64,000 nucleotides of DNA from positions 53,320,001 through 53,384,000 of the forward strand of contig OZ024741.1 in the NCBI GenBank assembly GCA_964016885.1. The letters run 5' to 3'. Under the pieces are notes generated by a model. It was not told the DNA's origin and did not search any database. It was given only the letters and a program-made list of their open reading frames with translations. This document shows, piece by piece, positions 1 through 55,123 of this stretch (position 1 is its first letter; every line of letters begins with the position of its first letter). Source of the DNA: Eledone cirrhosa (Eukaryota). A program made the position numbers and the translations under genes.

Positions 1-340
1 GTTTCTATATCTAGCCATTAAAATGTGTCCCAATATAGACCCTAAATTCTATGGTGAGGTGCACCTTCCAAGAGAGACTTTTAAAGCATAAAGTGTACTA
101 ACTATAGAGTAGTTTAACTAAATTATGCTGAAGGTGATCATATTATTATTAAGGTGGATTAACCCATCTTAAGGTGCTACAAATGGAAATTATAGATGAT
201 GAGCGAGTATTCTAAATTAATGATCTATGTGGTTGTAGTCTGCTCATATGACCAGGCGCGGTGATTGCAGGATTGCTTCAGGACCCAATGATCTCTGGTA
301 AGATCTGGGTCATCGCTTGCTACATTGGATGTCGAAAGAT
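1..340 (-). repeat. Inverted copy of 3281-3620 (inverted pLTR arm)
   Basis: Direct reverse-complement match read by eye; identity stops at gtcgaaagat (340/3281). Confidence 0.97.
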
Positions 341-382
341 TAACTGCTCCATATCGTTGAGCTGACATATAATATTGCCAAT

Positions 383-2842
383 ATGCTAATCAAAGACCAA
401 CTCCCCATGTCAACCAAGAACATACCAATACCATCCAGGAATACATATGAGAAATTGCTGATCAACAGTGTAAATTCATTTATCAATAGAGTGAGATGGA
501 GGACATTCCATTATGATAGAAACAAATCTAACAACTTGAATAATACTAACAATTTTGACTCCTTCGGCTTTAAAACCTTTAAAAGCCCCCCTCATAACAC
601 TCTACTTAACTCCTTTGAAAATGACCTAGTTAAACTAGTTAAGAACATTAAATACAATAAGCACCATATTAGAAGCAACACCTTCTTAAACAAACTTAAC
701 ACTTCTATTAGTGGATTCAAAACTAGTAATAAAATTATTGTACACGCAGATAAAACTAATAACATATACAGCCTAGATTATATTACTTATAGAAAGTTTA
801 TATATAATGAACTACATAAAAGCTACAAAAAAACCACCTTGAAAAACTTAGAAGATATTAATGTAGAGGGTTATAATATAGTGTCTAAACTAGGACTACA
901 GAGGCATACACAACCTTTCACTCCGAACCCCCCTAGATTCTCTCTGAAGGACCATAAGGAGAACTTCATCAGCAACCCCACGATAAGACTTATCTGCCCT
1001 TCCAAGTCCGACATTGGTATTATCAGCAAGAAGATTTTGGATAAAATCATCCCACAAATTAAACACAAGATACACCTTAAACAATGGGGAAATACGGGTG
1101 AAGTAATTGAATGGTTTAAGGATATCAAGAATAATAAGAACAAAAAATTTATTCAATTTGATATCAATTCATACTACACCTCTATTTCCCCTATCCTATT
1201 AAATAAGGCACTTATCATGGCCATGACCAATAGCGACCTGACTAGAGCCCAGGTTGATGTCATCCTTGCGGCCCGTAAAACCATAATCACCTTCGAGGAC
1301 CAACTATGGACACGCAAGGATACGCACAACAACTTCGACATAACCATGGGATCTAGTGACTCGGCGCAGGTCACTGATTTGGTCGGCCTATACCTCCTCA
1401 ATGAAATCCATAAATACCTCCCTTACCTCAACGGTGGTTTGTACCGCGATGATGCACTTCTACTCATAGAATATAAAAAATTTAATATAGAAAGAACTAG
1501 AAAACAACTGCATAAGACATTCAAAAACTTTAACCTTAGTATCACCATGGACAAAAACACTAAAAATGTTAACTTCCTAGACGCCACACTATACCTAGAC
1601 TCAAAAATATATACACCTTTCCATAAGCCTAATGAGAAACTTATTTACGTAGATACCAAGTCTAATCACCCTAGATCAATATTAAACTCTATCTCTAAGG
1701 GGGTGTCCAATAGAATCTCTAGTCTGTCCTATGACGCAAACATATTTAGCAAAAACTCACAATATTACAATCAAGCATTAGCTAGCTCGGGCCATAATAT
1801 AGAAATTGAGTTCCTATCTAAGAAAACACATAGCTACAACATAATCTCGCACAACATGTCCATGAGGAAATCTAATAATAGGAATAGCAACCACAAGTAC
1901 ACCAAAGCGGAGGGTGCCACAGGAAGTAACCATTACCATGGAAACTACTGTGAGGCCTTAGGAGGAAGCAACACACCAAACACTAAAAGCAAAAATAGAA
2001 GAAGAAATAATACATTTTTCAACCCTCCCTTCAACCTAAATGTCTCCACCAACATACCTAGGGCTTTCTTCTCACTACTAGATAAAAACTTCCCTCTAGG
2101 ACACAAGTACCACAACCTCTTAAACAAAAACACCATTAAAATCTCATACTCTACGACGCCTAACTTAGCATACCACATAGCTAGCAGCAATAATAGTAAA
2201 ATTAGTTCTTACTTCCAACAAACAAAATCACAACGGGATGCAAACCCTCTAAATACCACTGTAGCAAGCAATAATAGCAACGGCAGTAACAATAGAAATA
2301 ACACTAGTATAAGTAATAACACCAGGGTTGCCAACCCGAACACCCAAAATCCTATATCCACCACACAGACTTCCGCATTGCATTATAACCAGCGGACTAA
2401 CGCACAGAATAATTGTAACTGTAGAGCTAATAGAACCTGCCCTTTAGATAAAAAATGCCTAACCAAGGATGTCATATACTCATGCACAGTCACGACTAAT
2501 AACTCTTCAGAAACCTATGTAGGCTCCACTTCTAACTGCTTCAAAATCAGATATAACTCGCACATCCACTCGTTCAAAAAGCACAGCCTAGCCAACTCCA
2601 CCTCACTTTCTAGCTACATACACTATCTAAAATCTAAAAATAAACCATACACACTCAAATGGGAAGTGATAGGCAGCGCGACCTCGTACAAACCACCTAA
2701 TAAATTCTGTAACCTCTGTATACTAGAGACACACAATATTATCTTCTCCAACCGTAACCTACTTAACAAAAAATCTGAGGTGTTTGCAACTTGCCAGCAC
2801 CGCCTCAGACATTCCTTCCAAAACTTTAAGCCCTATATATAG
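383..2842 (+). CDS. PLE reverse transcriptase / GIY-YIG endonuclease, 819 aa (Naiad-like)
   Basis: Motifs KNIPIP..RVRWR, ADKTNN, LKDHKENF..RLICPSKSDIG, FIQFDI, MGSSDSAQ, GLYRDD, NFLD, NHP; Cys linker CNC-x5-CPL-x3-C; GIY-YIG-like VIY..YVG..FKIRY..H; C-terminal CNLC..E..LLNK. Confidence 0.95.
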   Translation: MLIKDQLPMSTKNIPIPSRNTYEKLLINSVNSFINRVRWRTFHYDRNKSNNLNNTNNFDSFGFKTFKSPPHNTLLNSFENDLVKLVKNIKYNKHHIRSNTFLNKLNTSISGFKTSNKIIVHADKTNNIYSLDYITYRKFIYNELHKSYKKTTLKNLEDINVEGYNIVSKLGLQRHTQPFTPNPPRFSLKDHKENFISNPTIRLICPSKSDIGIISKKILDKIIPQIKHKIHLKQWGNTGEVIEWFKDIKNNKNKKFIQFDINSYYTSISPILLNKALIMAMTNSDLTRAQVDVILAARKTIITFEDQLWTRKDTHNNFDITMGSSDSAQVTDLVGLYLLNEIHKYLPYLNGGLYRDDALLLIEYKKFNIERTRKQLHKTFKNFNLSITMDKNTKNVNFLDATLYLDSKIYTPFHKPNEKLIYVDTKSNHPRSILNSISKGVSNRISSLSYDANIFSKNSQYYNQALASSGHNIEIEFLSKKTHSYNIISHNMSMRKSNNRNSNHKYTKAEGATGSNHYHGNYCEALGGSNTPNTKSKNRRRNNTFFNPPFNLNVSTNIPRAFFSLLDKNFPLGHKYHNLLNKNTIKISYSTTPNLAYHIASSNNSKISSYFQQTKSQRDANPLNTTVASNNSNGSNNRNNTSISNNTRVANPNTQNPISTTQTSALHYNQRTNAQNNCNCRANRTCPLDKKCLTKDVIYSCTVTTNNSSETYVGSTSNCFKIRYNSHIHSFKKHSLANSTSLSSYIHYLKSKNKPYTLKWEVIGSATSYKPPNKFCNLCILETHNIIFSNRNLLNKKSEVFATCQHRLRHSFQNFKPYI

Positions 2843-4285
2843 CAATGTCGGACTGGAACCTAACACCACATCTAGCATCAAACACCAGAGACACACCCTA
2901 TACTACATACCCAACACTAGCTGATCCATTATAACACAAACAACGACATCCCTCTGGAACCCTTCGCAGGGAAAATACCCATTTATACCTCTACGGCAGG
3001 TGAGACAACATCCACCCACTTGGACGGCACTACACCGCTCTAAGGGTAATTTGAGCATGAATTGATCGGTTGGATGGTGTTGGGCAGAGGAAACACCTTC
3101 CTTAGACAGATGTAAAATGATTTAATCGAGTAGCGCTGTTGACCAGTAGGACCGGGCTGCTGAGCGCAGTGAGTGAATGCAATGCAACTGCCGTGCGGGT
3201 TGTACGTATATGGATGATCTGACGGTCAGAGAGGGGTCGCGAGGACTGCGGATTGACCTTTGGCCTGCCTGGGGACGATTATCTTTCGACATCCAATGTA
3301 GCAAGCGATGACCCAGATCTTACCAGAGATCATTGGGTCCTGAAGCAATCCTGCAATCACCGCGCCTGGTCATATGAGCAGACTACAACCACATAGATCA
3401 TTAATTTAGAATACTCGCTCATCATCTATAATTTCCATTTGTAGCACCTTAAGATGGGTTAATCCACCTTAATAATAATATGATCACCTTCAGCATAATT
3501 TAGTTAAACTACTCTATAGTTAGTACACTTTATGCTTTAAAAGTCTCTCTTGGAAGGTGCACCTCACCATAGAATTTAGGGTCTATATTGGGACACATTT
3601 TAATGGCTAGATATAGAAACCCCAGAGTTACCTCCCCGCATGCATTAACTCCCCTTAGCCACACACACACTTCCGGTATTCAATGGCGTTTCTCGAAACG
3701 TAACAACCACCTGTATCGAACTAAAGAACACCAGACTACGATCTCTAACTGGATTGTCGTCGATTATGTGAAAGGCATATAATCGAAATATACACTCCCT
3801 TGACCATGAAAATGCCGAAGTACATGAATTTCTTGACATCCCTGCGCTGTGCATCTCCAATACTTATAACACTTTTAATGCTTGCACTATCTTTAATGCT
3901 TATAATATTTCTCCACACACAGACTATATCAATCATATAAAGACTTTGCCACCAGATCTACCAACCTAACACTCTTATTTACCTACCTAAGTGCCTCTAC
4001 CACACATATCTCTCTGCCACACTATATAAACAAGACGCACATGCGTGCCATACATATAACATTTGCACTATATAACCACTTATCTTCATGTTGTACTTTA
4101 ACCTATATCTTTGATTTTTGATTGTACCTATTAATATAAATGTAATCTCGAAGTGTGTACTGCCACTCTAAATTCTGTAATGAATGTTGACCCACAATGT
4201 TTGAATATGTATCAATGTTTGAATATGTATTGGTATGTCTCTCGGCTGAAAAGGAGGTCATATAACTGTCCATGCATTAATAAAT

Positions 4286-5946: not shown

Positions 5947-6145
5947 CAGAGAAGTTGTGGTAAGAAACCAGGTGGACCATAACGCACCAGAGTACTTGAT
6001 ACTTAGGGTAGTAGAGTGGGTAATAGGAAAAGAGTCAGGACCCCAACGGCTGAGCCCCGTCCGGTTCGACAGCTAGATCCAAAATGGGATGTAGCTGTTG
6101 AAACGGCTGGAGCTCCAGCCGTCGGGGTCCTGACTCTTTTCCTAT
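5947..6145. mobile_element. Short foldback PLE-type derivative in (TA)n (family D)
   Basis: IR 6023-6052 / 6116-6145 plus a ~76-nt one-sided extension. Related copies with the same ends at 18595-18732 and 48108-48237. Confidence 0.75.
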
Positions 6146-7160: not shown

Positions 7161-7585
7161 CCAAAGATTAATATGGTTCATTGATTACTCAATGAATATA
7201 GTTTTACAATAGATTAAAAGCACTCTACAAGAAGTTTTCTGGAGTTATTAATATTATTCAGAATATTAATAAATGAAGACATTCACATAATCAAAATATG
7301 TTTTATTATATATATTTCGAAGGTACTGTGTTGTTTTTTCAGTACGTCCTCGTCAGATAAAATACATGAATTGATGTATGACATACCTCAACGGTCTTGA
7401 TGGTTCAATTCCAGTATTGACAGTTGAACCATCAAGACCGTTGAGGCATGTCATACATCAATTCATGTATTTTATCTGACGAGGGCGTACTGAAAAAACA
7501 ACACAGTACCTTCGAAATATATATAAATATATATAATAAAACATATATTTTGATTATGTGAATGTCTTCATTTATTAATATTCTG

Positions 7586-7593
<8 letters not shown>
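7159..7593. mobile_element. HHR-bearing foldback element in (TA)n
   Basis: Near-perfect IR 7251-7408 / 7424-7593; ~92-nt left-only extension; TA repeats on both sides. Confidence 0.9.
7301..7362 (-). ncRNA. Type I hammerhead ribozyme (mirror copy at ~7470-7541 on +)
   Basis: ttttat-CTGACGA-ggacgtactg..cagtaccttc-GAAA-tatata-TA-ataaaa. The + copy has a small duplication near the cleavage site. Confidence 0.88.
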
Positions 7594-9545: not shown

Positions 9546-10565
9546 ATGTGTTTGTGTGTAGGAGTTTGTCTTCAGTATGTATGTGTTTGTGTGTAGGAGT
9601 TTGTCTTCAGTATGTATGTGTTTGTGTGGGGGTTTGTCTTCAGTATGTATGTGTTTGTGTGGGGGTTTGTCTTCAGTATGTATGTGTTTGTGTGTAGGAG
9701 TTTGTCTTCAGTATGTATGTGTTTGTGTGGGGGTTTGTCTTCAGTATGTATGTGTTTGTGTGTAGGAGTTTGTCTTCAGTATGTATGTGTTTGTGTGTAG
9801 GAGTTTGTCTTCAGTATGTATGTGTTTGTGTGGGGGTTTGTCTTCAGTATGTATGTGTTTGTGTGTAGGAGTTTGTCTTCAGTATGTATGTGTTTGTGTG
9901 TAGGAGTTTGTCTTCAGTATGTATGTGGTTGTGTGTAGGAGTTTGTCTTCAGTATGTATGTGGTTGTGTGTAGGAGTTTGTCTTCAGTATGTATGTGTTT
10001 GTGTGTAGGAGTTTGTCTTCAGTATGTATGTGGTTGTGTGTAGGAGTTTGTCTTCAGTATGTATGTGTTTGTGTGTAGGAGTTTGTCTTCAGTATGTATG
10101 TGGTTGTGTGTAGGAGTTTGTCTTCAGTATGTATGTGTTTGTGTGTAGGAGTTTGTCTTCAGTATGTATGTGGTTGTGTGTAGGAGTTTGTCTTCAGTAT
10201 GTATGTGTTTGTGTGTAGGAGTTTGTCTTCAGTATGTATGTGTTTGTGTGTAGGAGTTTGTCTTCAGTATGTATGTGTTTGTGTGTAGGAGTTTGTCTTC
10301 AGTATGTATGTGTTTGTGTGTAGGAGTTTGTCTTCAGTATGTATGTGGTTGTGTGTAGGAGTTTGTCTTCAGTATGTATGTGTTTGTGTGGGAGTTTGTC
10401 TTCAGTTTGTATGTGTTTGTGTGCGAGTTTGTCTTCAGTATGTATGTGTTTGTGTATAGGAGTTTGTCTTCAGTATGTATGTGTTTGTGTGTAGGAGTTT
10501 GTCTTCAGTATGTATGTGGTTGTGTGTAGGAGTTTGCCTTCAGTATGTATGTGGTTGTGTGTGTT
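9546..10565. repeat. 35-bp minisatellite, about 29 copies
   Basis: Unit gtgtgtaggagtttgtcttcagtatgtatgtgttt with 33-bp variants; no spacers. Confidence 0.97.
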
Positions 10566-18763: not shown

Positions 18764-18983
18764 GGTAATAAGTTATCATTATAGGCAATCCAGTTAGAGG
18801 TTGTGAGTACTCTGCGTCGTGGATAGTTTTAACGTACGGCTTTGTTTAACTCAACAAGATGTTTCCATAGTTAGGCAGCGAGTTCGCGGTAATTCCTATG
18901 TATTTTATACTTGGAGTAAAGTAATAATAATGAAAGATTGAAGAGTAACATGGTTGGTTGTATAACAAGGGGCTTTAATTAAG

Positions 18984-19094
18984 GTATTGACATTTGTTTC
19001 ATTGATCAGGTGAGTCTAGAGGCCGCTAATCGCTCGAAGATGCGTCACTCGATCTCCATTACATTATTTACCTCTGATCAACTCCTCAGAATAC
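18984..19094 (-). ncRNA. Type I hammerhead with ~80-nt stem II domain (mutated mirror copy 21857-21968, +)
   Basis: gtatt-CTGAGGA-gttgatcag...ctgatcaat-GAAA-caaatg-TC-aatac. Confidence 0.85.
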
Positions 19095-19499
19095 AAAAAC
19101 AATTCACACAAGGCAAGATATATATAGAGAAATAGCGTATAATCAAAATAATAAAATCAATAATAAAATATATATGATAAATAGGTAGAGAAGTTAGAGA
19201 TGTAAAAAGTAAAAAGTAAAAGATGAGAAAAAATATACAGTAAAAAAGTAAGAAAATGGAAAAATAATACAAATATAATGAAATATAATGAAATAAGGAT
19301 AAGTGAGAGCATGTAAGTATAGAATATGATAGTGGTGAGTAAGTGTCCTTGTAAGGATTTTGTGGTGGGGGTTAGTGCTAAGATGAAAAGTCATATTCGA
19401 AAATACATAGCTACGTGTAGAGAGTCTGAGGTAGTGACAGATAAAAGCAAAAGCAATAAATTAGAGATTAATTGGGAGATACTAGTATGAGATCCATTA

Positions 19500-21234
19500 T
19501 ACGCCGTGAACTACACAAAAAATACAAAAAAAACAACAACAGAATTTACACTCGCTAGCATTAATAAGGAAAGACTTAGCATAGTAAAAACTGAAAATAT
19601 CTGATAGAACCGAGCCTCTAACCCATTGTGACCCCACATTTAACCTACCCAGAAAAATTCAGACCTTACCTCGGACGAAATTAAAATATTACTAGCTGCT
19701 AGGAGAACTATCATTAAATTCAAAAATAGTTACTGTAACGAAAAAACAGACAGAATAGCATCGATATCACAATGGGATCTAACGACTCAGCATAGGTAAC
19801 GGACATGGTGGGAATATATATAGCGCACAACTTACATAAGGAATTCAATAACATTCTAGGGAGTAATTTATAGATACGATACACTCCTTTTAGCCAAAAA
19901 CTTAAATAATCAAAACATGGAAAAATTACGAAAAAACACCAGAGTCTTCTTCAACAAACTAGACCTAGGTATCACTTTCGAACTTAACTCTAAAAAAGCT
20001 AACTTCTTAGATGTAACACTCAACCTAAACACAGGATTAATAGAGCCATTCCATAAAAATAACGAGAATCTAGCCTACATTAGTTATTACTCAAACCACT
20101 CCCGATCCATAATTAACTCCATAGCACATAGTATATCCCTCAGAATATCCCGCCTATCTTCTAACCTAGAGATTTTTAACGAACATGCAAACTATTATAA
20201 CATAGATTTACATAAGGCAGGACATAAAGCGGGGCAGGAATACATTCCAAATAGAGACATCAGCAATAAACCTAACAACTACACTACCCACACCTATAGA
20301 AATAACAAACATAGGACTAAGCATAGAATTAGACAACGAGCACCAAAAATAACTGAACAGAACACTAATATAAAGACCCCTAAGAACTATAGAAGATCCA
20401 GAGATAGAAAATACCTATGGTTCAATCCAATATTCAACTCCTCTATCAAAACCAAACTACCTTCTACATTATTTAAGCTAATCGACAAACACTTCCCTAA
20501 ACTACTCAAATGCCATAGAATCTGTAATAGAAGAACAATCAAACTATCTTACTCTACTGCAGCCAACATAGAATGACACATACATAAAATCAACCGCAAA
20601 AATATCTCTAAAGAAAATAACCTACCAACATACACCATAGCACCAAATACAAAACGCAAACACATAACAACATCGCAACCACAAACACATCGCAACCACA
20701 AACACATCGGGGCGCATCACAACAAAAAAATAAATGGCCAAAATCTCAACCCACCCACAACAACATACAAAACCGCAACAGAGAACCTGCACACAGAAAA
20801 GCCTCCAACTGTAACTGCCACCTACCGGATAAGTGGCCACTGCAAAATAGATGCCTGGATTCGAGTATGGTGTAACTGTGTACTGTAAATTCAGGCAACT
20901 CTACTTGGCACTACATAGGTTCATCGGCTGGGGAGTTAAAAAAAGGTGGTATGTCCACAGACACTCCATGAAGAACCATAGACTGGAGAACTCTACGACG
21001 CTCGCCAATAAAATCTGGCAGCTTAAAATCACAAACCAGGAATATAGGATTAGCTTGTCAAAATCATCGGAAGCAAGGGCCTACAACAATGGGATGTCCC
21101 ACTGCGGACTTTGTAATATGGAGCTATTCCATATTTTAAGGTACGATAAGATGCTTCTTAACAGCAAAATAGAAAGATTAATTTTCTGTAGGCATAAAAT
21201 AGCTACCAAGTTCACAAATTTCAAACCACCGTAA
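19500..21234 (+). pseudogene. Disrupted Naiad-type RT/GIY-YIG ORF
   Basis: DITMGSNDSA, NFLDVTLNL, SNHS, WFNP, TIKLSYS, CNC..PL..C, CGLC..E, FCRH; several stops and frameshifts. Confidence 0.92.
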
Positions 21235-22018
21235 TTCGAGCCAGCAATCCCAAAATTAGAACTGAACCACCTGGATTTTAACGTATGGAAAACACACCAT
21301 CACACCGCTATTAGCTCTCAAATGGCCAACTGATCACTAGATCATAAATCTCTTAACATCTCTTTCACCCTCTCGACCTGAAACCGCATCAACCCCATTA
21401 AGGCAAGACAATCAGCAAAACATTTACCACACGCATTTGTCAAACATCCCTTCACCATCCACCCTTAGCCCTTGGATCTCATACTAATATCTCCCAATTA
21501 ATTGCTTTTTCTTTTATCTGTCACCACCTCAAACTCTCTACACGTATCTATGTATGTTTCGAATATGACTTTTCATGTTAGCACTAAACCCACCACAGAA
21601 TCGTTATTTGTACACTTACTCACCACCACTATCATATTTTGTACTTATATGATCTCACTTATCCTTATTTCTTTATATTTGTATTACTTTTCCATTTTCT
21701 TACTTTTTTACTGTATATTTTTTCTTATCTTTTACTTTTTACTTTTTACATCTCTAACTTCTCTACCTATCTATCATATATATTTTATTATTGATGTTAT
21801 TGTTTTGATTATACGCTATTACTCTATATATATCTTGCCTTCTGTGAATTATTTTTGTATTCTGAGAAGTTGATCAGAGGTAAATAATGTAATGGAGATC
21901 GAGTGACACAACTACGAGCGATTAGCGGCCTCTAGACTCACCTGATCAATGAAAAAAATTGTCAATACCTGAAATAAAGCCCCTTGTTGTACAGCCAACC
22001 ATGTTACACTTCATTCTT

Positions 22019-22087
<69 letters not shown>

Positions 22088-23458: not shown

Positions 23459-24290
23459 AAGAAAATGAGTTGTTTTCTTTTAAATGAAAAAAAAAAACGA
23501 GTTGTCCTACACGAGTGAAAGTATAAAGAAAAAGTATGAAATCGAAAATGCAACTGGAGTCTTTTTAAGCATATTTATTTGTTTCCTTTACCGGTTTCAC
23601 AGTTCTTATGCTTTTCAAAACTAGAATTGAGATGGAGGTTTTGTGGTTTTTCTCGCATCTCGTTGGTGTTCGAATGTTATTTCTGTTTTATGTAGGAAAA
23701 AAGGGGCTCGAATGATAGGATTTTTAGATAAGTAATTTGGTTGGTTGATGACTGTCACGTGAATAGGTATAATAAATTTTGCGTCAGTTCGTGTTAGAAA
23801 GTTCTTATAGTATTTTCCTTTAAAAAAAGGGGGAGGTTATTTTTTTTTCATATATAAGTGAAATTTGGTTGTTGATGCTAGTCACGTGTCTAAGCACATC
23901 AACGTTCGCGCTAGTTCGCGTTTGAAGGTTCTTTATTGTCATTTTCACTTAAAAAAGTGGCTCAAAAATGTTTTTCTTTTATTAATATAATTTGATTGGT
24001 TTTGACTGTCACGTGAATAAATACATTAAATTTCACGCCAGTTCGTATTTGGGGGTTCTTTGTGCGGTTTTCACAGTCACATGATTTGTCATAGAGAGTT
24101 TTGTGCCAAACAAGAGATAATGGTCAAGAAAAAAGGGATGGGGAGAATTGTTCTGGTTCAGTGAGTCTGGGTGATGTGCTGTGTTGTCAAAATTCAAACT
24201 TTCTATTGAAATAAATTGAATGTTTGTATCGGAAGTGGTGGTGGCGGCGAAAGGGTAGAAAATAGAGATATATGATTCCATTAGTAGAAA
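23459..24290 (-). mobile_element. Older inverted pLTR arm of the Neptune-type family
   Basis: Diverged match to 25119-25799, starting at the same point after (TA)n; contains a TTGAAAA..GAAACCGGTA motif on the minus strand. Confidence 0.85.
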
Positions 24291-24542: not shown

Positions 24543-25046
24543 GTGGGTCATCAGCATGTGGAAGGCCGATATTGTCCGCACTACTAGAGAGAACTAAAGA
24601 AAACTAACTTTCGCACGTGTAGACATAAGGGAAATGCGTGCGCGGGGCAGTAAACGGCATGTCACCGGTTACTGTCTCCCGAATGGTAGTTTACTTTAGT
24701 TCTCTCTAGTAGTGCTGACAATATCGGCCTTCCACATGTTGATGACCCACCGGGCCGAATTGGAACCCACTAAAATGGCGAAACATTCTCCTGGTGAGTG
24801 TGTACATGTGTGATTTAGGTGAGGTTGGTTTCTCATTTTAATTTCTACTTTTAATTTTAATGTTTTTCCTATGCCTCTAGTAGCTTATATTCTCTTCACG
24901 CTGGTGGTTTGAAATTCCTGTAAAGAAAAATACACTCTTCTGTGTCTTTCCCCTCTATACATTGTATTTTAAAGTGCCCAGGATAACTCTTTCCTTTGAG
25001 CTCATTTAATTACAGGATTATACGCGAGTCCTTTGCTCCGTTATTT

Positions 25047-25050: not shown

Positions 25051-25124
<74 letters not shown>

Positions 25125-26136
25125 GTGAGGTTTTTTTTACAAAATGAAAAATAACCGAGGTGTCCTACACGAGTGAAAGTATAAAGAAAAAAAGATGAAA
25201 TCGAAAATGCAACTGGAGTCTTATTTAAAAATATATATATATATTTATTTGGTTCCTTTACCGGTATCGCAGTTCTTCTGTTTTTCAAAAGTAGAGTTGA
25301 GATGGAGGGTCTGTCATTTTTCTCAGATCTGGTTAGTCTCTGAATTGTTACTTGTTTTATATGGAAAAAGTGGCTCGAAATGCCAGGTTTTTCGAGAAGT
25401 AATTTGATTGGTTGGTCAATAATTATAATAAATTTCGCGCCAGTTTGCGTTTAAAAGTTCTTCAAACAAGGGGGGGTGGGTCACAGGTTGTTTTTTTCAT
25501 ATATGAGTGTTTGAATTTCTTTTTACTTAAAAAAAGGGGGCTCACGAAGGCTTTTTTTAATAAACGTAATTTGATTGGTTATAAATGAAATTATGGCTGT
25601 CACGTGAACAAGTTTTCATTAAATTTTCTCGCCCTTATTTGGAAATCTATTCTGTAGCCTTTTTAGAGAATGTTATGACAAGTAAAAGATAATGGTCAAG
25701 AGAAATTGGATTGGAGAATTGTTCTGGTTCAGTGAATATGGTTAGTTCGCTGGGGTGTCAGAATTCAGATTTTCTATTGAATAAAGAAAGTAAAGATATT
25801 ATAATTATTGACCAACCAATCAAATTACTTCTCGAAAAAGCTGGCATTTCGAGCCACTTTTTCCATAAAAAACAAGTAACATTCAGAGACCAACCAGATG
25901 TGAGAAAAACCACAGACCCTCCATCTCAACTCTACTTTTGAAAAGCAGAAGAACTGCGATACCGGTAAAGGAACCAAATAAATATATATATATTTTTTTT
26001 AAATAAGACTCCAGTTGCATTTTCGATTTCATCTTTTTTTCTTTATACTTTCACTCGTGTAGGACACCTCGGTTATTTTTCATTTTGTAAAAAAAACCTC
26101 ACTTTCTAATACATACCCACCACACGAAGACCGAAA

Positions 26137-29100
26137 ATGCCACCAAAGTCTCAACAAAACAACAACTCACTGAACCAGGATATCTTAAATGAACTCAAAG
26201 AGATTTCCTCTAAACTCTCAATTTTGACCAACAAAGTGGACCAAATACACATCTATAAAAAAGACCCCACAAAGAAACAGAAAATACCCAAGAGACGAAT
26301 ATTACTCCAGCATTGACTAAACTAATCGAAACCATTGAAACAGCAATGCTCCAAATGCTGGAACAACCATTAGAACCCAATCTACGAGATGTCCACTCAG
26401 TGAAAAACACCCTAATCAACATATGGACTCAAAAGCTCACAGCCCGCAAATTCGCCCTTTGGAATCTTCTAAAAAATAATGGCAAGGCAGACATATATGA
26501 AAAGTGACTAAACTCTACCCCAATCATCCTCCCCCCAAAACTCCAAATAAAACCCATCCCGAATGAACCAGAAAACCAACAAAGACTTAGGGAAAATATG
26601 GCGTTAGAAGAATTTAAAATAGAAATAGAACTGTTGCGATTAAGAGCCAACTCCAACGAAGAAAAATTCAAGTCACTCGACCAACAGATAGACACGGAAA
26701 TCTCAAAGCACTCTGAAGGCCTACTCTACGAAAAAACCTTAAAACTTTGGAAAGAAAACTGTGAGGATTAAGAACTAACATCCCTCCAGCGATGGGAAAA
26801 AACGCCACCTGGTTCAACAACAACGAAATGGACTTCAAAAATGAACAACATACAGGTAACCCATTTTTAAAACAAACTAAAACTCACACACCACATGCAC
26901 AACAAATAACAAAAAAAGTAACAAAACGTCCAACATACCCCCAGCAAAACTATAACGTTAATCCCAGAAACCATAGACAAAACTATAACCCTACTAACAA
27001 AAACCGAAGATCCCCGAACACAAAGCAGGAACCGATCCGCAGATCACAACCCCCACAAAACCTATTCCAAAACCGTAGACCCCTGCCCACACAGAGCCTG
27101 TTCCAAAACCGTAGATCCCAACCCACACAAAGGAACAGAATTTACAACCCGGACTATCAACAAACCGAACCTCAATACGTCCGAAACTTCTATACAACAA
27201 CAGGAGAAATACCATTACAACAACAGGAGAAATACCATTAGAAACTTCTATACAACAACAGGAGAAATACCATTAGATATAATAATACCATTGAAAAAAC
27301 ATTCCAGAAAAATCATTTTTTAGACCAAGGCTACAGGACCCACGACACTCGGAGGCACAAATCGATTTTGTAAAACCGAAAATAATCAACCTTTCAAATA
27401 CAAACCTCTCAGCCAACAAGTAAAAATTCTCTCCAAAGGACTGAAATTCACACCAACACCACAATACTCTAACCCCAATGACATAAATGACGATATCTCA
27501 CATTTCTGTAGAAAATTACGTCTCACAGAGAAATTCTTTGACAAGGAGAATAACGATGAATCAATTGTACGGAATAAAAGCAGCTACAACCCAACATAAG
27601 GTAGAAACAGAGTTCTGGACAAATTTTCTGACCACATAGCTACTTTCCCATACCATGAACTACCACAACCTAAACCCAAACCCAACACGAGTCGAAGGGA
27701 ATGGGAGATTATCCATGAACTAAAAAACAATACGGGCATTATAATAAACGAAGCGGACAAGGGAAGTACTGTTGTCATTATGGAGGCTGAAAAATATAAA
27801 CATTCTATGTTCTCTCTCTTACAAAATACTAATTACTATGAAAGAGTAAAATACTACCAGCAATCAAAAACAATGACCAGATTAAACACACTGATTTATC
27901 GATACCAGGAAGACCTAACTAAAAAGGAACGCGATTATTTAACACATTTTGAATACAAAACCAGCAACCTTTACGGACTTCCGAAGATCCACAAGTGTAA
28001 AATAATTAACGATGCCTGTAAACAATCCACCTCAGCCTGCGTGAACACAAAATACCCCACATACCTTAAATTAAGACCAATTGTAGCGGGCCCACAATGT
28101 GAAACACACAGACTGAGCAACTTTATAGACGTACTACTAAAACCAATTCCCAAACACATACCAAGCCTTGTAAGAGACGATCTGGACGTCTTAAACCACC
28201 TCCACAGACATGTCAACAACGACACTATTATTGTGTCTTTCGATCCCACACCAATACGGACTAGAAGCAATAGGATTCTGGCTGGAGAAATATCCCATTC
28301 AGATACCTGGCAGAATAGAAAAAAGCTTCATCACCGAGGGATTAAAATTCATCTTACAGAACAACTTTTTTGATTTCGATGGCAATACTTACAAGCAAAT
28401 ATCGGGGACTGCGATGGGTACAAAAGCCGCTCCAACTCATGCCAACTTAGTCATGGCATACTTAGAAGTCCAGATATATGAACAGTCCAAATCAAAATAC
28501 GGATTGAACTTCCACAAATATTTATCAGAGAATTGGAAACGCTACTTGGATGATTGTCTCATTCTTTGGTCCCACACACTCGACCAACTGAAGGATTTCA
28601 AAAACTTAATAAACGGCATCAATAACCACATCCAATTCACAATGGAATACAGCCAAGATCAACTCCCATTTCTGGACATCTTAATCATAAAAAAGACACA
28701 AATATTGAAACTGACATACACTACAAACCAACAGATTCCTAACAATACCTGCTATTCACCTCCAACCACCCAAAGCACACGCAGGCGGACATTCCTTTTA
28801 ACCTAGCAAGAAGAATTTGCACAATTGTCTCCAATTATGAAACGCGAAATAAAAGACTTCAAGAATTAAAGGAAATTCTACTCAAAAGAGAGTACCCACC
28901 ATTACTAATAAATAATTGTTTCTACTTTTGGCACAAGGCCAGCAATTTCCCAGTACATTACTGGTACTTTATTTTATCGACCCCGTATGGATGAAAGGCA
29001 AAGTTAACCTCGGCGGGATTTGAACTCAGATCATAAAGGTAATAAATAATGGAATAGAAAGGGCTAAAGCAATAGGCATTGATGAATTACGAAAACAGAA

Positions 29101-29340
29101 ACAGATTCGAGGTACGTCCAATATTCTATCATATATCTCAACACACAACCCAAGAAATTCGGAAGCTTACAACACTATTCACAAGAACATCCCACTATTA
29201 AAACAAAACCCAAGAATGAAAAAAGCCCTTGAAACACACAAAATAATCAAAAGCAAAAGACAACCGAAATCACTGAAAACATTACTCACCAATGCCAAAT
29301 TACCTACCACAAACCCACAACCAACTGTCAAAAATATTCC
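26137..29340 (+). pseudogene. Disrupted PLE RT ORF (Neptune-like) with long N-terminal region; endonuclease part not found
   Basis: INLS..KGLKFTPTP, ADKGS, LYGLPKIHK, RPIVAGP, GTAMGTKAAP, WKRYLDD, LPFLD, HPKH; stops, frameshifts and a SINE insertion. Confidence 0.9.
28917..29039 (-). mobile_element. 5'-truncated SINE inserted in the PLE ORF
   Basis: Meta-like domain; 11-bp TSD taataaataat at 28906-28916 and 29040-29050. Confidence 0.88.
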
Positions 29341-29359
29341 TATTAAGGGAATCATTTTC

Positions 29360-29400
<41 letters not shown>

Positions 29401-29887
29401 ATATATATATATATATATTCTCTTCATCTTAACATGTTAACCATACTCCCACACACATAACACCAATACACACACATAACAACCCAGGCCCCCACACACA
29501 CAACACCCTCCCCCATTTCTACTAATAGAATCACTTTCCTACACACATATATACACACACACAAATATATATATATTCTCTCCATCTTAACATACTCCCA
29601 CACACACACACACACATAACACCCATATACCCCCCCCCCCATTTCTACTAATAGAATCATCTTCCAATACACACACACGCGCGCGCACACACACACACAA
29701 GCACACAAATAAACATACACATCTTTACTTTCTTTACTTCAATAGAAAATCTGAATTCTGACACCCAGCGAACTAACCATAATTTCATGTTTAACCAATC
29801 AAATTACGTTTATTAAAAAGAAGCCTTCTTGAGCCCCCATTTTTTTAAGTAAAGAGAAATTCAAACACACACACACAACACACAACA

Positions 29888-29944
<57 letters not shown>

Positions 29945-30486
29945 ACACACACACACACAAGCACACAAATAAACATACATATCTTTACTTTCTTTATTCA
30001 ATAGAAAATCTGAATTCTGACACCCCAGCGAACTAACCATATTCACTGAACCAGAACAATTCTCCTATCCAATTTCTCTTGACCATTATCTTTCACTTGT
30101 CATAAAATTCTCTAAAAAGGCTACAGAATAGATTTCCAAATAAGGGCGCGAAAATTTAATGAAAACTTGTTCACGTGACAGCCATAATTTCATTTATAAC
30201 CAATCAAATTACATTTATTTAAAAAAAAAGCCTTCGTGAGCCCCCTTTTTTTAAGTAAAAACAAATTCAAACACTCATATATGAAAAAACAACCTGCCCC
30301 CCCCCCCCCTTGTTTGAAGAACTTTGTAACGAGAACCGGCGCGAAATTTATTATAATTATTGACCAACCAACCAAATTACTTCTCGAAAAACCTGGCATT
30401 TCGAGCCACTTTTTCCATATAAAACAAGTAACATTCAGAGACCAACCAGATGTGAGAAAAACCACAGATCCTCCATCTCAACTCTA

Positions 30487-30522
30487 CTTTTGAAAAGCAG
30501 AAGAACTGCGAAACCGGTAAAG
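30487..30522 (+). ncRNA. Minimal hammerhead, U3-A8 core variant
   Basis: ctt-TTGAAAA-gcag(aagaa)ctgc-GAAA-ccgg-TA-aag. Copies at 25935-25970 and in the inverted arm carry GATA instead of GAAA. Confidence 0.8.
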
Positions 30523-30989
30523 GGACCAAATAAATATATATATATTTTTTTAAATAAGATTCCAGTTGCATTTTCGATCTCATCTTTTTTTCTTTATATA
30601 TATATATATATATATATATATGGTGGTTTTTTGCTCCTTGCACTTTCCTAGCGTGATATCGTAAATGACTTTTGAGTCCTGCAAGGAGTTGAAGAGCTGA
30701 CTATAAATACTGTGGTCTCAAACCAGCATTGGCGCCATTTTTCCTATCTTAAAACAGTGTGAGATATGCGTACTTTTGTACATAAGGAACATTTAAAGAA
30801 AGGTGCCATTGCTATCAATCTTATTTTTACGAAATTTTCTTTTCGATTCAGCATGCTTAGTTCTGTCAAGCTGAAACGTTTTCTAAATGAGAAATGTAAC
30901 ACTATGTTTCCCTATCTGCCTTAAGAGATTCATGACTTTTGTAACATAAATTCAAATTTGGTTTTAAAGTGTCTTTGTATCTTTTCTTT

Positions 30990-34600: not shown

Positions 34601-35148
<548 letters not shown>

Positions 35149-39869: not shown

Positions 39870-39900
<31 letters not shown>

Positions 39901-40095
39901 GATAAATCTACCTGAAGACAGCATATATATATGTGTAGGTATGTATATTCCCTCTGATAGCTTGGAAACATTTTACATAGATCTATATGATATACATACC
40001 AACATACACATATATATATACTAGAAACGATCGTAAAATGATAAATTTTTTAATATAAGGAACTGTTTCTTTGTTTTTATTCATTATTTTTATTA

Positions 40096-40168
<73 letters not shown>

Positions 40169-40169
40169 A

Positions 40170-40240
<71 letters not shown>

Positions 40241-40246
<6 letters not shown>

Positions 40247-40594
40247 GTGAGGTTTTTTTTACAAAATGAAAAATAACCGAGGTGTCCTACACGAGTGGAA
40301 GTATAAAGAAAAAGGGATGAAATCGAAAATGCAACTGAAGTCTTATTTTTTTTAAAAATATATATATTTATTTGGTTCCTTTACCGGTTTCGCAGTTCTT
40401 CTGCTTTTCAAAAGGTGAGTTGAGATGGAGGGTCTGTGGTTTTTCTCACATCTGTGAGAAAAACCACAGACCCTCCATCTGAACTCACCTTTTGAAAAGC
40501 AGAAGAACTGCGAAACCGGTAAAGGAACCAAATAAATATATATATTTTTAAAAAAAATAAGACTTCAGTTGCATTTTCGATTTCATCCCTTTTT

Positions 40595-40601
<7 letters not shown>
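40241..40601. mobile_element. Miniature foldback of the Neptune-type pLTR
   Basis: 149-bp arms 40302-40450 / 40453-40601 with one mismatch seen; 61-nt left-only extension; ends identical to those of 25119-30598. Confidence 0.95.
40488..40525 (+). ncRNA. Minimal hammerhead, U3-A8 variant (mirror copy 40378-40415, -)
   Basis: cctt-TTGAAAA-gcag(aagaa)ctgc-GAAA-ccgg-TA-aagg. Confidence 0.82.
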
Positions 40602-40642
<41 letters not shown>

Positions 40643-49042: not shown

Positions 49043-49225
49043 TAATATATAAGAACAAAAGATGGTTAAAGGAGTTCCATCTATTTTATTATGCGCATTT
49101 CAAAAACAAACATCATCATGCAATAATATTTGTGTTTTCATCAGATAAAACAGGAAGACATGATATGTTGATTTAAAACTGCACTATCCACAAGTGATTT
49201 TTAGCCTTCATATCATGTTCTCCTG

Positions 49226-49292
49226 TTTTATCTGATGAAAACACAAATATTATTGCATGATGATGTTTGTTTTTGAAATGCGCATAATAAAA
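49226..49292 (+). ncRNA. Type I hammerhead (mirror copy 49084-49150, -)
   Basis: ttttat-CTGATGA-long AU/GU stem II-GAAA-tgcgca-TA-ataaaa. Confidence 0.88.
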
Positions 49293-49324
49293 TACATGGA
49301 ACTCCTTTAACCATCTTTTGTTCT

Positions 49325-49370
<46 letters not shown>

Positions 49371-51999: not shown

Positions 52000-52963
52000 T
52001 TCAAGAGTAACCAATCTTAAAGAGAGAGATAGAGATAGGAGAGGAGATATAAGAGGAGAGATTGGTGAATTAGTTAGAAGCCAAAGCGTAAAGGCATGTG
52101 CTCAATGTGCAATATACAATAGAAAGCAGCTAGGTGGCTGGGTTCATGCAGAGGTTAGGTGCGCAGAGCTGGAAATATTCATTAGTTAAGCAAAACAAGA
52201 CCACAAATTTCACAAAGAAGACATTATTAAAAGATTGTCAACATATTTTAGTTTGATGTAAGGAATGTAGAGAATAATAATAATAATATTAATAATAATA
52301 ATGTCCGTTTACAATTGTTTCGCTACTCCATATAATATTTCTGGATCAGATGACTATATATCATAATTGATCTGGTTCAGTTGAAAATAATTAACATATT
52401 TAAGAGACAGAGTGGCTCATCGGAACTTCAAAGGAATATAAATTAAAATAATGAGATAATGTTACATAATATAATGTTCCATATATTGGTTTTTACTATG
52501 GTGTCTTAGTTGCATCAGTTGTCAGCCATAATCAAGCAGTATTCATCTGTCGAGGCTGCATTGTGTGAGATCTGCCTATCGTTACCCATCGACAGATGAA
52601 TACTGCTTGATTATGGCTGACAACTGATGCAACCAAGACAGCATAGTAAAAACCAATATATGGAACATTATATTATGTAACATTATCTCATTATTTTAAT
52701 TTATATTCCTTTCAAATTCTGATGAGCCACTCTGTCTTTTAAATATGTTAATTATTTTCAACTGAACCAGATCAATTATGATATATAGTCATCTGATCCA
52801 GAAATATTATATGGATTAGGGAAACAATTGTAAACGGATATTATTATTATAAATATTATTATTATTATGCTCTACATTCCTTACATCAAACTAAAATATG
52901 TTGACAATCTTTTAATAATGTCTTCCTTGTGAAATTTGTGGTCATGTTTTGCTTAACTAATGA

Positions 52964-54471: not shown

Positions 54472-55116
54472 TTGTTTGTGTCATACGGTCCAATAAACTT
54501 TTGTTAGCAATATTAAGTTATCCACGCTTTTATATATCTCCAGTTCCATTAATGGGAACAGCTAGATGATGTAAAACCGGGTATTTGTATCAAAATAAAG
54601 ATCGGAAGGCATGGCATAAATGTCCAATCATTTTAATCACGACACATGTTTCAATAAGAGATAGTTCGATCGTGTAGCCATGATCGATTATCACTGATCG
54701 CGTCAGGTGAAAATGAATTGTCTTCATATCCTTGATATGGGGGAGAAAATTTAACGATGTTCACTCACTAGAGTTTTGTCCCCATATAAAGATTAAGCAG
54801 CCAAAACACGCCGACTATTATCGTCCTCATTTCGGGTCATTTACAGCTATTGAGAGATAGAGACTTGATAGTTTTATGACCCTAACTGAGGACGAAAGCA
54901 GTCGGCGTGCTTTGGCTGCTTAATCTTTGTATGGGGAACAAAACTCTGGTGAGTGAACATCGTTAAATTTTCTCCCTCATATCAAGGATTTGAAGACAAT
55001 TCATTTTCACCTGACGAGATCAGTGATAATCGATCATGGCCACACGATCGATCTATCTCTTATTGAAATATGTGTGGTGATAAAATGATTGGGATTCTAT
55101 ACCATGCCTTCGGATC

Positions 55117-55123
<7 letters not shown>
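54472..55123. mobile_element. HHR-bearing foldback element in (TA)n
   Basis: IR 54593-54840 / 54876-55123; ~120-nt left-only extension. Confidence 0.9.
55007..55080 (+). ncRNA. Hammerhead (mirror copy 54637-54710, -), each arm with a different lesion
   Basis: Composite tcac-CTGACGA-gat..att-GAAA-catgtg-TC-gtga. The left arm has A9C; the right arm has GTG at the cleavage triplet. Confidence 0.75.

What the first reader, a model, noticed from the sequence alone, without database searches (positions are those of the whole stretch)
40241..40601. 361-bp mini-palindrome has exactly the same two ends as the 5.5-kb Neptune-type element
Seen: the left end (TA)n|ttagaaagtgagg and the right end ttcttta|(TA)n are identical to those of 25119-30598, and the older copy at 23459 starts at the same left point. 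The offset between the arm ends is 61 nt in both copies. The two arms share private variants (ctcacctttt, gacttcag, catccct) absent from the 25-30 kb copy and are joined by a 2-nt loop. Inference: this is the cleanest evidence for two fixed priming sites and for both arms deriving from one source RNA or element.
Basis: partly seen in the sequence, partly recalled or inferred. Interest (0 to 1): 0.75.

Follow-up and report, generated by a model that had tools for sequence, protein, structure and literature searches.

The report
Twin-primed Penelope stub, fixed 61-base offset
This 361-base mirror-image insert is one of thousands of stubs of a Penelope-like jumping gene, and across the genome its two arms almost always start at two different fixed points 61 bases apart and stop at one spot, which likely means both cut ends of the target DNA each copy the element's RNA to its front end.

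Summary
The palindrome is real: 149-bp stem, one mismatch, 2-nt loop, 61-nt one-sided tail, in (TA)n, with the same ends as the 5.5-kb element. It is the shortest form of a known Penelope-like insertion (inverted pLTR plus tail). The family is huge (11,955 exact hits of one 31-mer). In 78 consecutive loci, 115 of 127 arms begin at site A or site B; 41 of 44 head-to-head pairs are A+B; 59 of 109 arms stop 17-30 nt past a TATAAAA box, a predicted RNA start. Conversion is rejected: 137 arm-unique changes against 1 locus-private shared one. This exact junction recurs at 334 places, in both polarities and five haplotypes, so it is re-made, not copied as a unit. Best reading: two target-primed cDNAs, one per site, run off the RNA 5' end and are joined. 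One shared RNA molecule is likely but unproven; no RNA was seen. The scan reached this model before on other families.

The parts
40099..40240 (.). Left (TA)n flank, the insertion target
40241..40301 (-). 61-nt tail, present on this arm only; outer end = site A. In the full element it is the 5' UTR directly after the pLTR (26048-26108)
40302..40454 (-). Inverted pLTR stub (arm A body), from site B to the stop hotspot, x=62-214 counted from site A
40451..40454 (.). Junction: 2-nt loop and 2-nt overlap of the arms, at the predicted RNA 5' end; same 32-mer junction at 334 places in the genome
40453..40601 (+). Direct pLTR stub (arm B), outer end = site B; 148 of 149 pairs complementary to arm A
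40488..40525 (+). Predicted minimal type I hammerhead with U3-A8 core, 4-bp stem II and palindromic stem III; predicted cut after 40521; mirror copy at 40378-40415 on the minus strand.
   Evidence: read by eye against PMC4209133; stems I and II fold; no Rfam hammerhead hit
40598..40630 (.). Right (TA)n flank; first bases shared with site B
25119..30598 (+). Long copy of the same family: inverted arm A 25119-25809, inner pLTR 25797-26047, tail 26048-26108, broken RT ORF, endonuclease region deleted near 29334, pLTR ending at site B 30598
30418..30424 (+). TATAAAA box 30 nt before the A (30448) at which most short arms stop; also in the inverted arm; absent from the mini-palindrome
   Evidence: 48 of the long arms share the 14-mer
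23459..24215 (-). Older solo arm A of the family, about 80% identical, no partner arm

Best explanation
The mini-palindrome is a dead-end insertion of a very abundant Penelope-like retrotransposon, likely made when both nicked strands of a (TA)n target each primed a cDNA on the element's sense RNA, one at site A and one at site B 61 nt upstream, and both copies ran off the predicted RNA 5' end and were joined head to head. Shown: two fixed outer ends, near-exclusive A+B pairing, one inner stop hotspot 30 nt past a TATA box, subfamily concordance of arms, independent later mutation of arms, repeated de novo formation of the junction. Inferred: that the hotspot is the RNA start, that A and B are priming sites (by analogy with PAc in vitro), that the protein acts as a dimer on one RNA, and that joining uses 0-2 nt microhomology. 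Long copies would arise the same way when priming falls in the downstream pLTR-plus-tail of a tandem or read-through RNA.
For: Outer ends 68 at A, 47 at B, 12 other of 127. Pairs 41 A+B, 1 B+B, 1 A+A (two solo arms 3.3 kb apart), 1 A plus rearranged B, of 44; p=1e-10 for 41 of 43 against 0.5. Either arm can be the longer one, up to the whole ORF (window copy: B long; L073: A long), and solo B arms exist (7 listed ending at x=204-214). 59 of 109 arms reaching x=200 stop by 216: 0.032 per nt against 0.001-0.0025 elsewhere; TATAAAA lies 30 nt before A213. 137 arm-unique against 1 shared locus-private change in 5731 sites; 43 against 4 in 2576. The T/A tract boundary differs between arms in 24 of 28 and 13 of 15 pairs, even with no substitutions, while total length stays 13 in 62 of 85 arms, as two separate copying passes would give. 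PAc in vitro cuts and extends both strands, starts at two internal RNA sites that bracket the tail, and is predicted to be a dimer (PMC11167929).
Against: No RNA data, so the start site is predicted from DNA only. The cap signature is ambiguous: after T213 a non-genomic C is commonest among non-G letters (hand tally of 100 rows: 43 C, 26 A, 18 T, 13 mutated read-through), but G is about twice as frequent overall (1,748 against 910) and many C can be explained by re-copying. D. virilis Penelope has a TATA-less internal promoter (PMC2377424). PAc showed no strand preference of start site in vitro, which alone would allow A+A and B+B. The two commonest junctions look like tight hairpins, as self-priming would give. 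L094 pairs two subfamilies, which fits two cDNAs but not one RNA. Sample is from one contig and needs an exact 31-mer.
Confidence: 0.68

Rival explanations
1. One cDNA (or an antisense RNA template) folds back and primes a copy of itself, giving the second arm; the second arm is then joined to the target.
For: Proposed for PLE inverted junctions in PMC3846280. Tight 1-4 nt loops at the commonest junctions; short partner remnants after the hotspot in solo arms; arms share rare variants at a few loci.
Against: A self-copy cannot be longer than its template, yet arm B outruns arm A in 5 of 27 minis and by kilobases in the window's long copy; a copy of B cannot supply the tail; a full fold-back would give A+A, seen in 0 true pairs; the longer internal TA tract at x=116 is not used as an end; solo B arms exist. 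Later deletion at palindrome centres could explain some asymmetry.
Confidence: 0.15
2. Sites A and B are endonuclease cuts that resolve a hairpin or palindromic DNA intermediate, not priming sites.
For: PMC8557442 attributes the tail most likely to endonuclease resolution of the intermediate; a staggered cut would also give strict A+B pairing.
Against: In PAc the two tail ends coincide with mapped RT start sites; solo A and solo B arms with TA on both sides; a 61-nt stagger needs a one-sided tail to be explained separately.
Confidence: 0.1
3. The mini-palindrome is a MITE-like unit amplified from a mini master, or its arms are kept alike by gene conversion.
For: Terminal inverted repeats, TA target, thousands of similar-sized copies; 334 share this junction.
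Against: The same junction occurs with A on the long side in 15 and B in 10 of 30 loci and in five natural haplotypes; most minis have other junctions; arm-unique changes outnumber shared private ones 137 to 1; the mini lacks the TATA box.
Confidence: 0.04
4. Assembly or sequencing fold-back artefact.
For: Near-perfect palindrome in simple repeats; no public contig spans this locus.
Against: Flanks are not mirrored, one arm has a tail, arms of older copies differ by up to 7%; short-read contigs show the same family ends at 40302 and 40451-40455.
Confidence: 0.01

Closest known systems
EN+ Penelope-like element insertions with inverted 5'-truncated copy and tail (PMC8557442 passages; PMC3846280 passages and Discussion; PMC2377424 passages)
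   Same: Head-to-head inverted pLTR, tail at one end only, partial tandems, (TA)n targeting, RT followed by GIY-YIG.
   Different: Tail is 61 nt rather than 30-40; about a third of loci are ORF-less stubs; strict A+B pairing and a single inner stop site were not stated in the passages read.
PAc (Poseidon of Anolis) in vitro, PMC11167929 (parts 1-2 of 4 read)
   Same: Two internal RT start sites bracket the tail; both target strands cut and extended; hammerhead cleavage not needed (arms here read through the predicted cut).
   Different: PAc start sites lie inside the ORF, here upstream of it; the parts read do not address inverted ends or pairing of the two sites in one insertion.
Opposite-strand pairs of minimal hammerheads 100-700 bp apart in Schistosoma PLEs, PMC4209133 (part 1 of 4 and passages)
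   Same: Same footprint, including the U3-A8 core variant.
   Different: Noted there as probably truncated PLEs, with no mechanism given in the parts read.
LINE-1 twin priming (recalled, no call)
   Same: Both target strands prime cDNA; products joined by microhomology into an inversion.
   Different: In L1 the second primer lands at variable upstream sites and the two cDNAs do not overlap; here both sites are fixed and the copies overlap, giving a palindrome.

Membership tests
EN+ Penelope-like element (family of the mini) | RT followed by C-terminal GIY-YIG endonuclease in one ORF | tested here: met
   L073 copy: RVT_1 E=1.4e-6 (just under the curated cut-off) and GIY-YIG E=4.7e-7 (over it); the window's long copy has lost the endonuclease; the mini has no ORF
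EN+ Penelope-like element (family of the mini) | pLTRs in partial tandem and inverted arrangement | tested here: met
EN+ Penelope-like element (family of the mini) | [quoted passage not shown] | tested here: met
   61 nt; 41 of 44 pairs
EN+ Penelope-like element (family of the mini) | Minimal hammerhead in the pLTR | tested here: inconclusive
   Motif fits by eye with U3-A8 core and stems I and II fold; Rfam gives no hammerhead hit; cleavage untested
Neptune clade | CX2-5CxxC linker between RT and endonuclease | tested here: met
   C-X4-C-X2-C in L073; shared with Nematis
Neptune clade | RT phylogeny with Neptune rather than Nematis | not tested
   No reference PLE set was at hand; no tree built
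Neptune clade | Microsatellite insertion bias | tested here: met
   TA-type flank at 63 of 68 A ends and 43 of 47 B ends
MITE (non-autonomous DNA transposon) | Amplified as a unit from a master with fixed structure | tested here: not met
   Both polarities and five haplotypes for one junction; many junctions
MITE (non-autonomous DNA transposon) | Symmetric terminal inverted repeats with a target-site duplication | tested here: not met
   Ends offset by 61 nt; duplication unreadable in (TA)n

The most novel reading that the evidence does not exclude
A Penelope-like RT dimer engages one sense RNA at two fixed sites, one per target strand, and copies the same stretch twice, so every stub records both priming sites and the RNA start; this would be a general explanation of the inverted ends and one-sided tail of this class, without antisense templates or self-priming.
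Probability: 0.45. Interest if true: 0.72.

Novelty: new member of a known kind. Interest (0 to 1): 0.5.

Why it matters
How Penelope-like elements build their inverted ends is listed as open (PMC8557442), with self-priming on an antisense template (PMC3846280) and endonuclease resolution as published guesses. Thousands of dated natural products with a strict A+B rule and one stop site favour twin priming on sense RNA and give sharp predictions for the existing in vitro system. The locus itself is an ordinary young member; annotators should not file such stubs as MITEs.

Tried and rejected
DNA search of the own genome returned nothing because common words are skipped; patterns were used instead. 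The first pattern differed from the window by one base in an A run and so sampled only 47 variant copies; those 30 loci were left out of end and pair counts but kept in the divergence and haplotype counts. Rfam gave only hairpin-driven microRNA matches below gathering score and nothing for one arm. No RNA holder listed. Contigs of four public runs did not span the locus. The predicted hammerhead cut (x about 141) is not a stop hotspot. The 'solo arm' list wrongly included paired arms and was redone; the tract comparison had a faulty pattern and was redone. L154 looked discordant but has a local rearrangement. Earlier-finding look-ups by place and sequence were empty. Literature searches showed no paper stating A+B pairing or twin priming for PLEs; subscription papers are not covered and supplements, including Fig. 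S2 of PMC11167929 on genomic ends, were not read.

Full report
Observation. The insert at 40241-40601 is an asymmetric palindrome between (TA)n runs: a 149-bp stem with one mismatch, a 2-nt loop, and 61 extra bases on the left arm. Its ends equal those of the long element at 25119-30598 and the older arm at 23459 starts at the same left point. I call the tail end site A (x=1) and the other end site B (x=62). In the long element the tail is the sequence directly after the inner pLTR, before the ORF.

Identity. The long window copy has a broken RT and has lost about 560 nt including the endonuclease. [quoted passage not shown] This is an EN+ Penelope-like element with the Neptune/Nematis linker (PMC8557442, passages); the clade was not resolved. 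The pLTR holds a predicted minimal hammerhead with the U3-A8 core described for PLEs (PMC4209133, part 1 of 4 and passages); Rfam does not detect it. Inverted truncated copies with a one-sided 30-40 nt tail are the textbook PLE insertion.

Population. A 31-mer of the pLTR has 11,955 exact matches. I fetched all of the first 100 matches on contig C1, 78 loci. Of 127 arms, 68 begin at A, 47 at B and 12 elsewhere, mostly eroded by microsatellite growth; flanks are TA-type at 63 of 68 and 43 of 47. Of 44 head-to-head pairs 41 are A+B (five of them with B eroded to x=67-96), one is B+B (L108), one A+A (L124, two solo arms 3.3 kb apart with no element sequence between) and one an A with a rearranged B. 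27 of the 78 loci are minis of 245-383 bp; scaled to the hit count that is roughly 3,000, a rough lower bound.

Inner ends. 59 of 109 arms that reach x=200 stop by x=216, about twenty times the rate elsewhere, with the peak at 210-214. Solo arms stop there too, running into TA. In sense orientation a TATAAAA box, conserved in long arms, begins 30 nt before A213. This predicts an RNA start. Genome counts: 3,145 read through, 1,748 have G214 then a non-G, 910 have a non-G after T213. A hand tally of the 100 listed rows gives 43 C, 26 A, 18 T and 13 mutated read-throughs; a cap-templated C is possible, but many C can come from re-copying or the partner arm, so this is inconclusive. The predicted hammerhead cut is not a stop site, in line with PAc, where uncut RNA is the main template.

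Source of the arms. Arms of a locus share haplotype far above chance (24 of 34 against 6.4; 33 of 34 at position 176; 19 of 22 against 7.7 in the young group). But the partner is the closest arm in only 17 of 44 pairs, and L094 joins two subfamilies. Arms have mutated independently since insertion: 137 arm-unique against 1 shared locus-private change, 43 against 4 in a second set that repeats one locus. That rejects conversion. Arm divergence ranges from about 0.9% in the mini's subfamily to 3.9% in the long copy's, so subfamilies are partly sequential and concordance cannot prove one RNA molecule. The T/A tract boundary differs between arms in most pairs while its length is held, including loci whose arms share rare variants (L156, L165); this fits two copying passes over one template, though later mutation is not excluded.

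Is the mini copied as a unit? Its exact junction occurs 334 times. In 30 such loci, 15 have A on the long side, 10 have B, none is A+A or B+B, five are truncated, and five natural haplotypes occur. The junction is therefore re-made repeatedly.

Mechanism. PAc in vitro cuts and extends both target strands and starts at two internal RNA sites that bracket the tail; a dimer is predicted (PMC11167929, parts 1-2 of 4). Adding the genomic rules found here, the simplest reading is that each target strand primes one cDNA, one at A and one at B, both run to the RNA 5' end, and their 3' ends are joined. Self-priming (PMC3846280, Discussion) fails to explain B arms longer than A arms, solo B arms and the lack of A+A, though tight-loop junctions resemble it. 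Endonuclease resolution of a DNA intermediate is not excluded. D. virilis Penelope has a TATA-less promoter, so the TATA reading is family-specific. No RNA was available.

Artefact check. Short-read contigs show the family's ends at site B and at the hotspot but none spans this locus; unmirrored flanks and the tail exclude a fold-back read.

Verdict. Known kind of insertion, ordinary young member; the population statistics make the open question of PLE inverted ends testable. I had formed the RNA-start idea before the look-up; earlier unchecked notes on other families of this genome give the same model and are not independent support.

Noticed in passing
window 40345-40357 and mirror; L061-L168: The T-run/A-run boundary in the pLTR floats from T3 to T14 while the summed length stays 13 in 62 of 85 arms (r=-0.93) and differs between arms with no other change; possibly a per-copy slippage error of the RT.
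   Followed up: partly
window 40488-40491: The two-base subfamily marker lies in predicted hammerhead stem I and turns a mismatch into a G-C pair in the younger subfamilies (read by eye).
   Followed up: partly
L094: Mini-palindrome whose two arms carry different subfamily markers.
   Followed up: partly
L108: The only B+B head-to-head pair in the sample.
   Followed up: no
window 52179-52963, 34638-35044, 54594-55122, 7255-7589, 49045-49331, 24543-24750, 6023-6145: Further unrelated palindromes, most with (TA)n directly at one end and a one-sided extension at the other, probably stubs of other PLE families.
   Followed up: no
window 1-3620 and 18931-22021: Inverted repeats around RT-like ORFs with a C-terminal endonuclease-like end (344-2842, 832 aa; broken copy near 19860-21234); arms at 1-340/3281-3620 are identical, so very young; Pfam gave no clear family.
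   Followed up: no
window 28915-29050: A roughly 130-bp very common repeat is inserted in the long element's ORF; it appears in many fetched loci.
   Followed up: no
L087, L082, L165: Tandem re-copies of the last 18-20 nt before the stop hotspot, suggesting repeated template jumps at the RNA end.
   Followed up: no
window 39900-40098 and L028, L096: The sequence left of the mini's TA flank also follows solo arms of this family elsewhere, suggesting nesting in the TA flanks of another repeat.
   Followed up: no
window 9546-10562: 35-bp tandem array, 29 copies, 95% matches.
   Followed up: no
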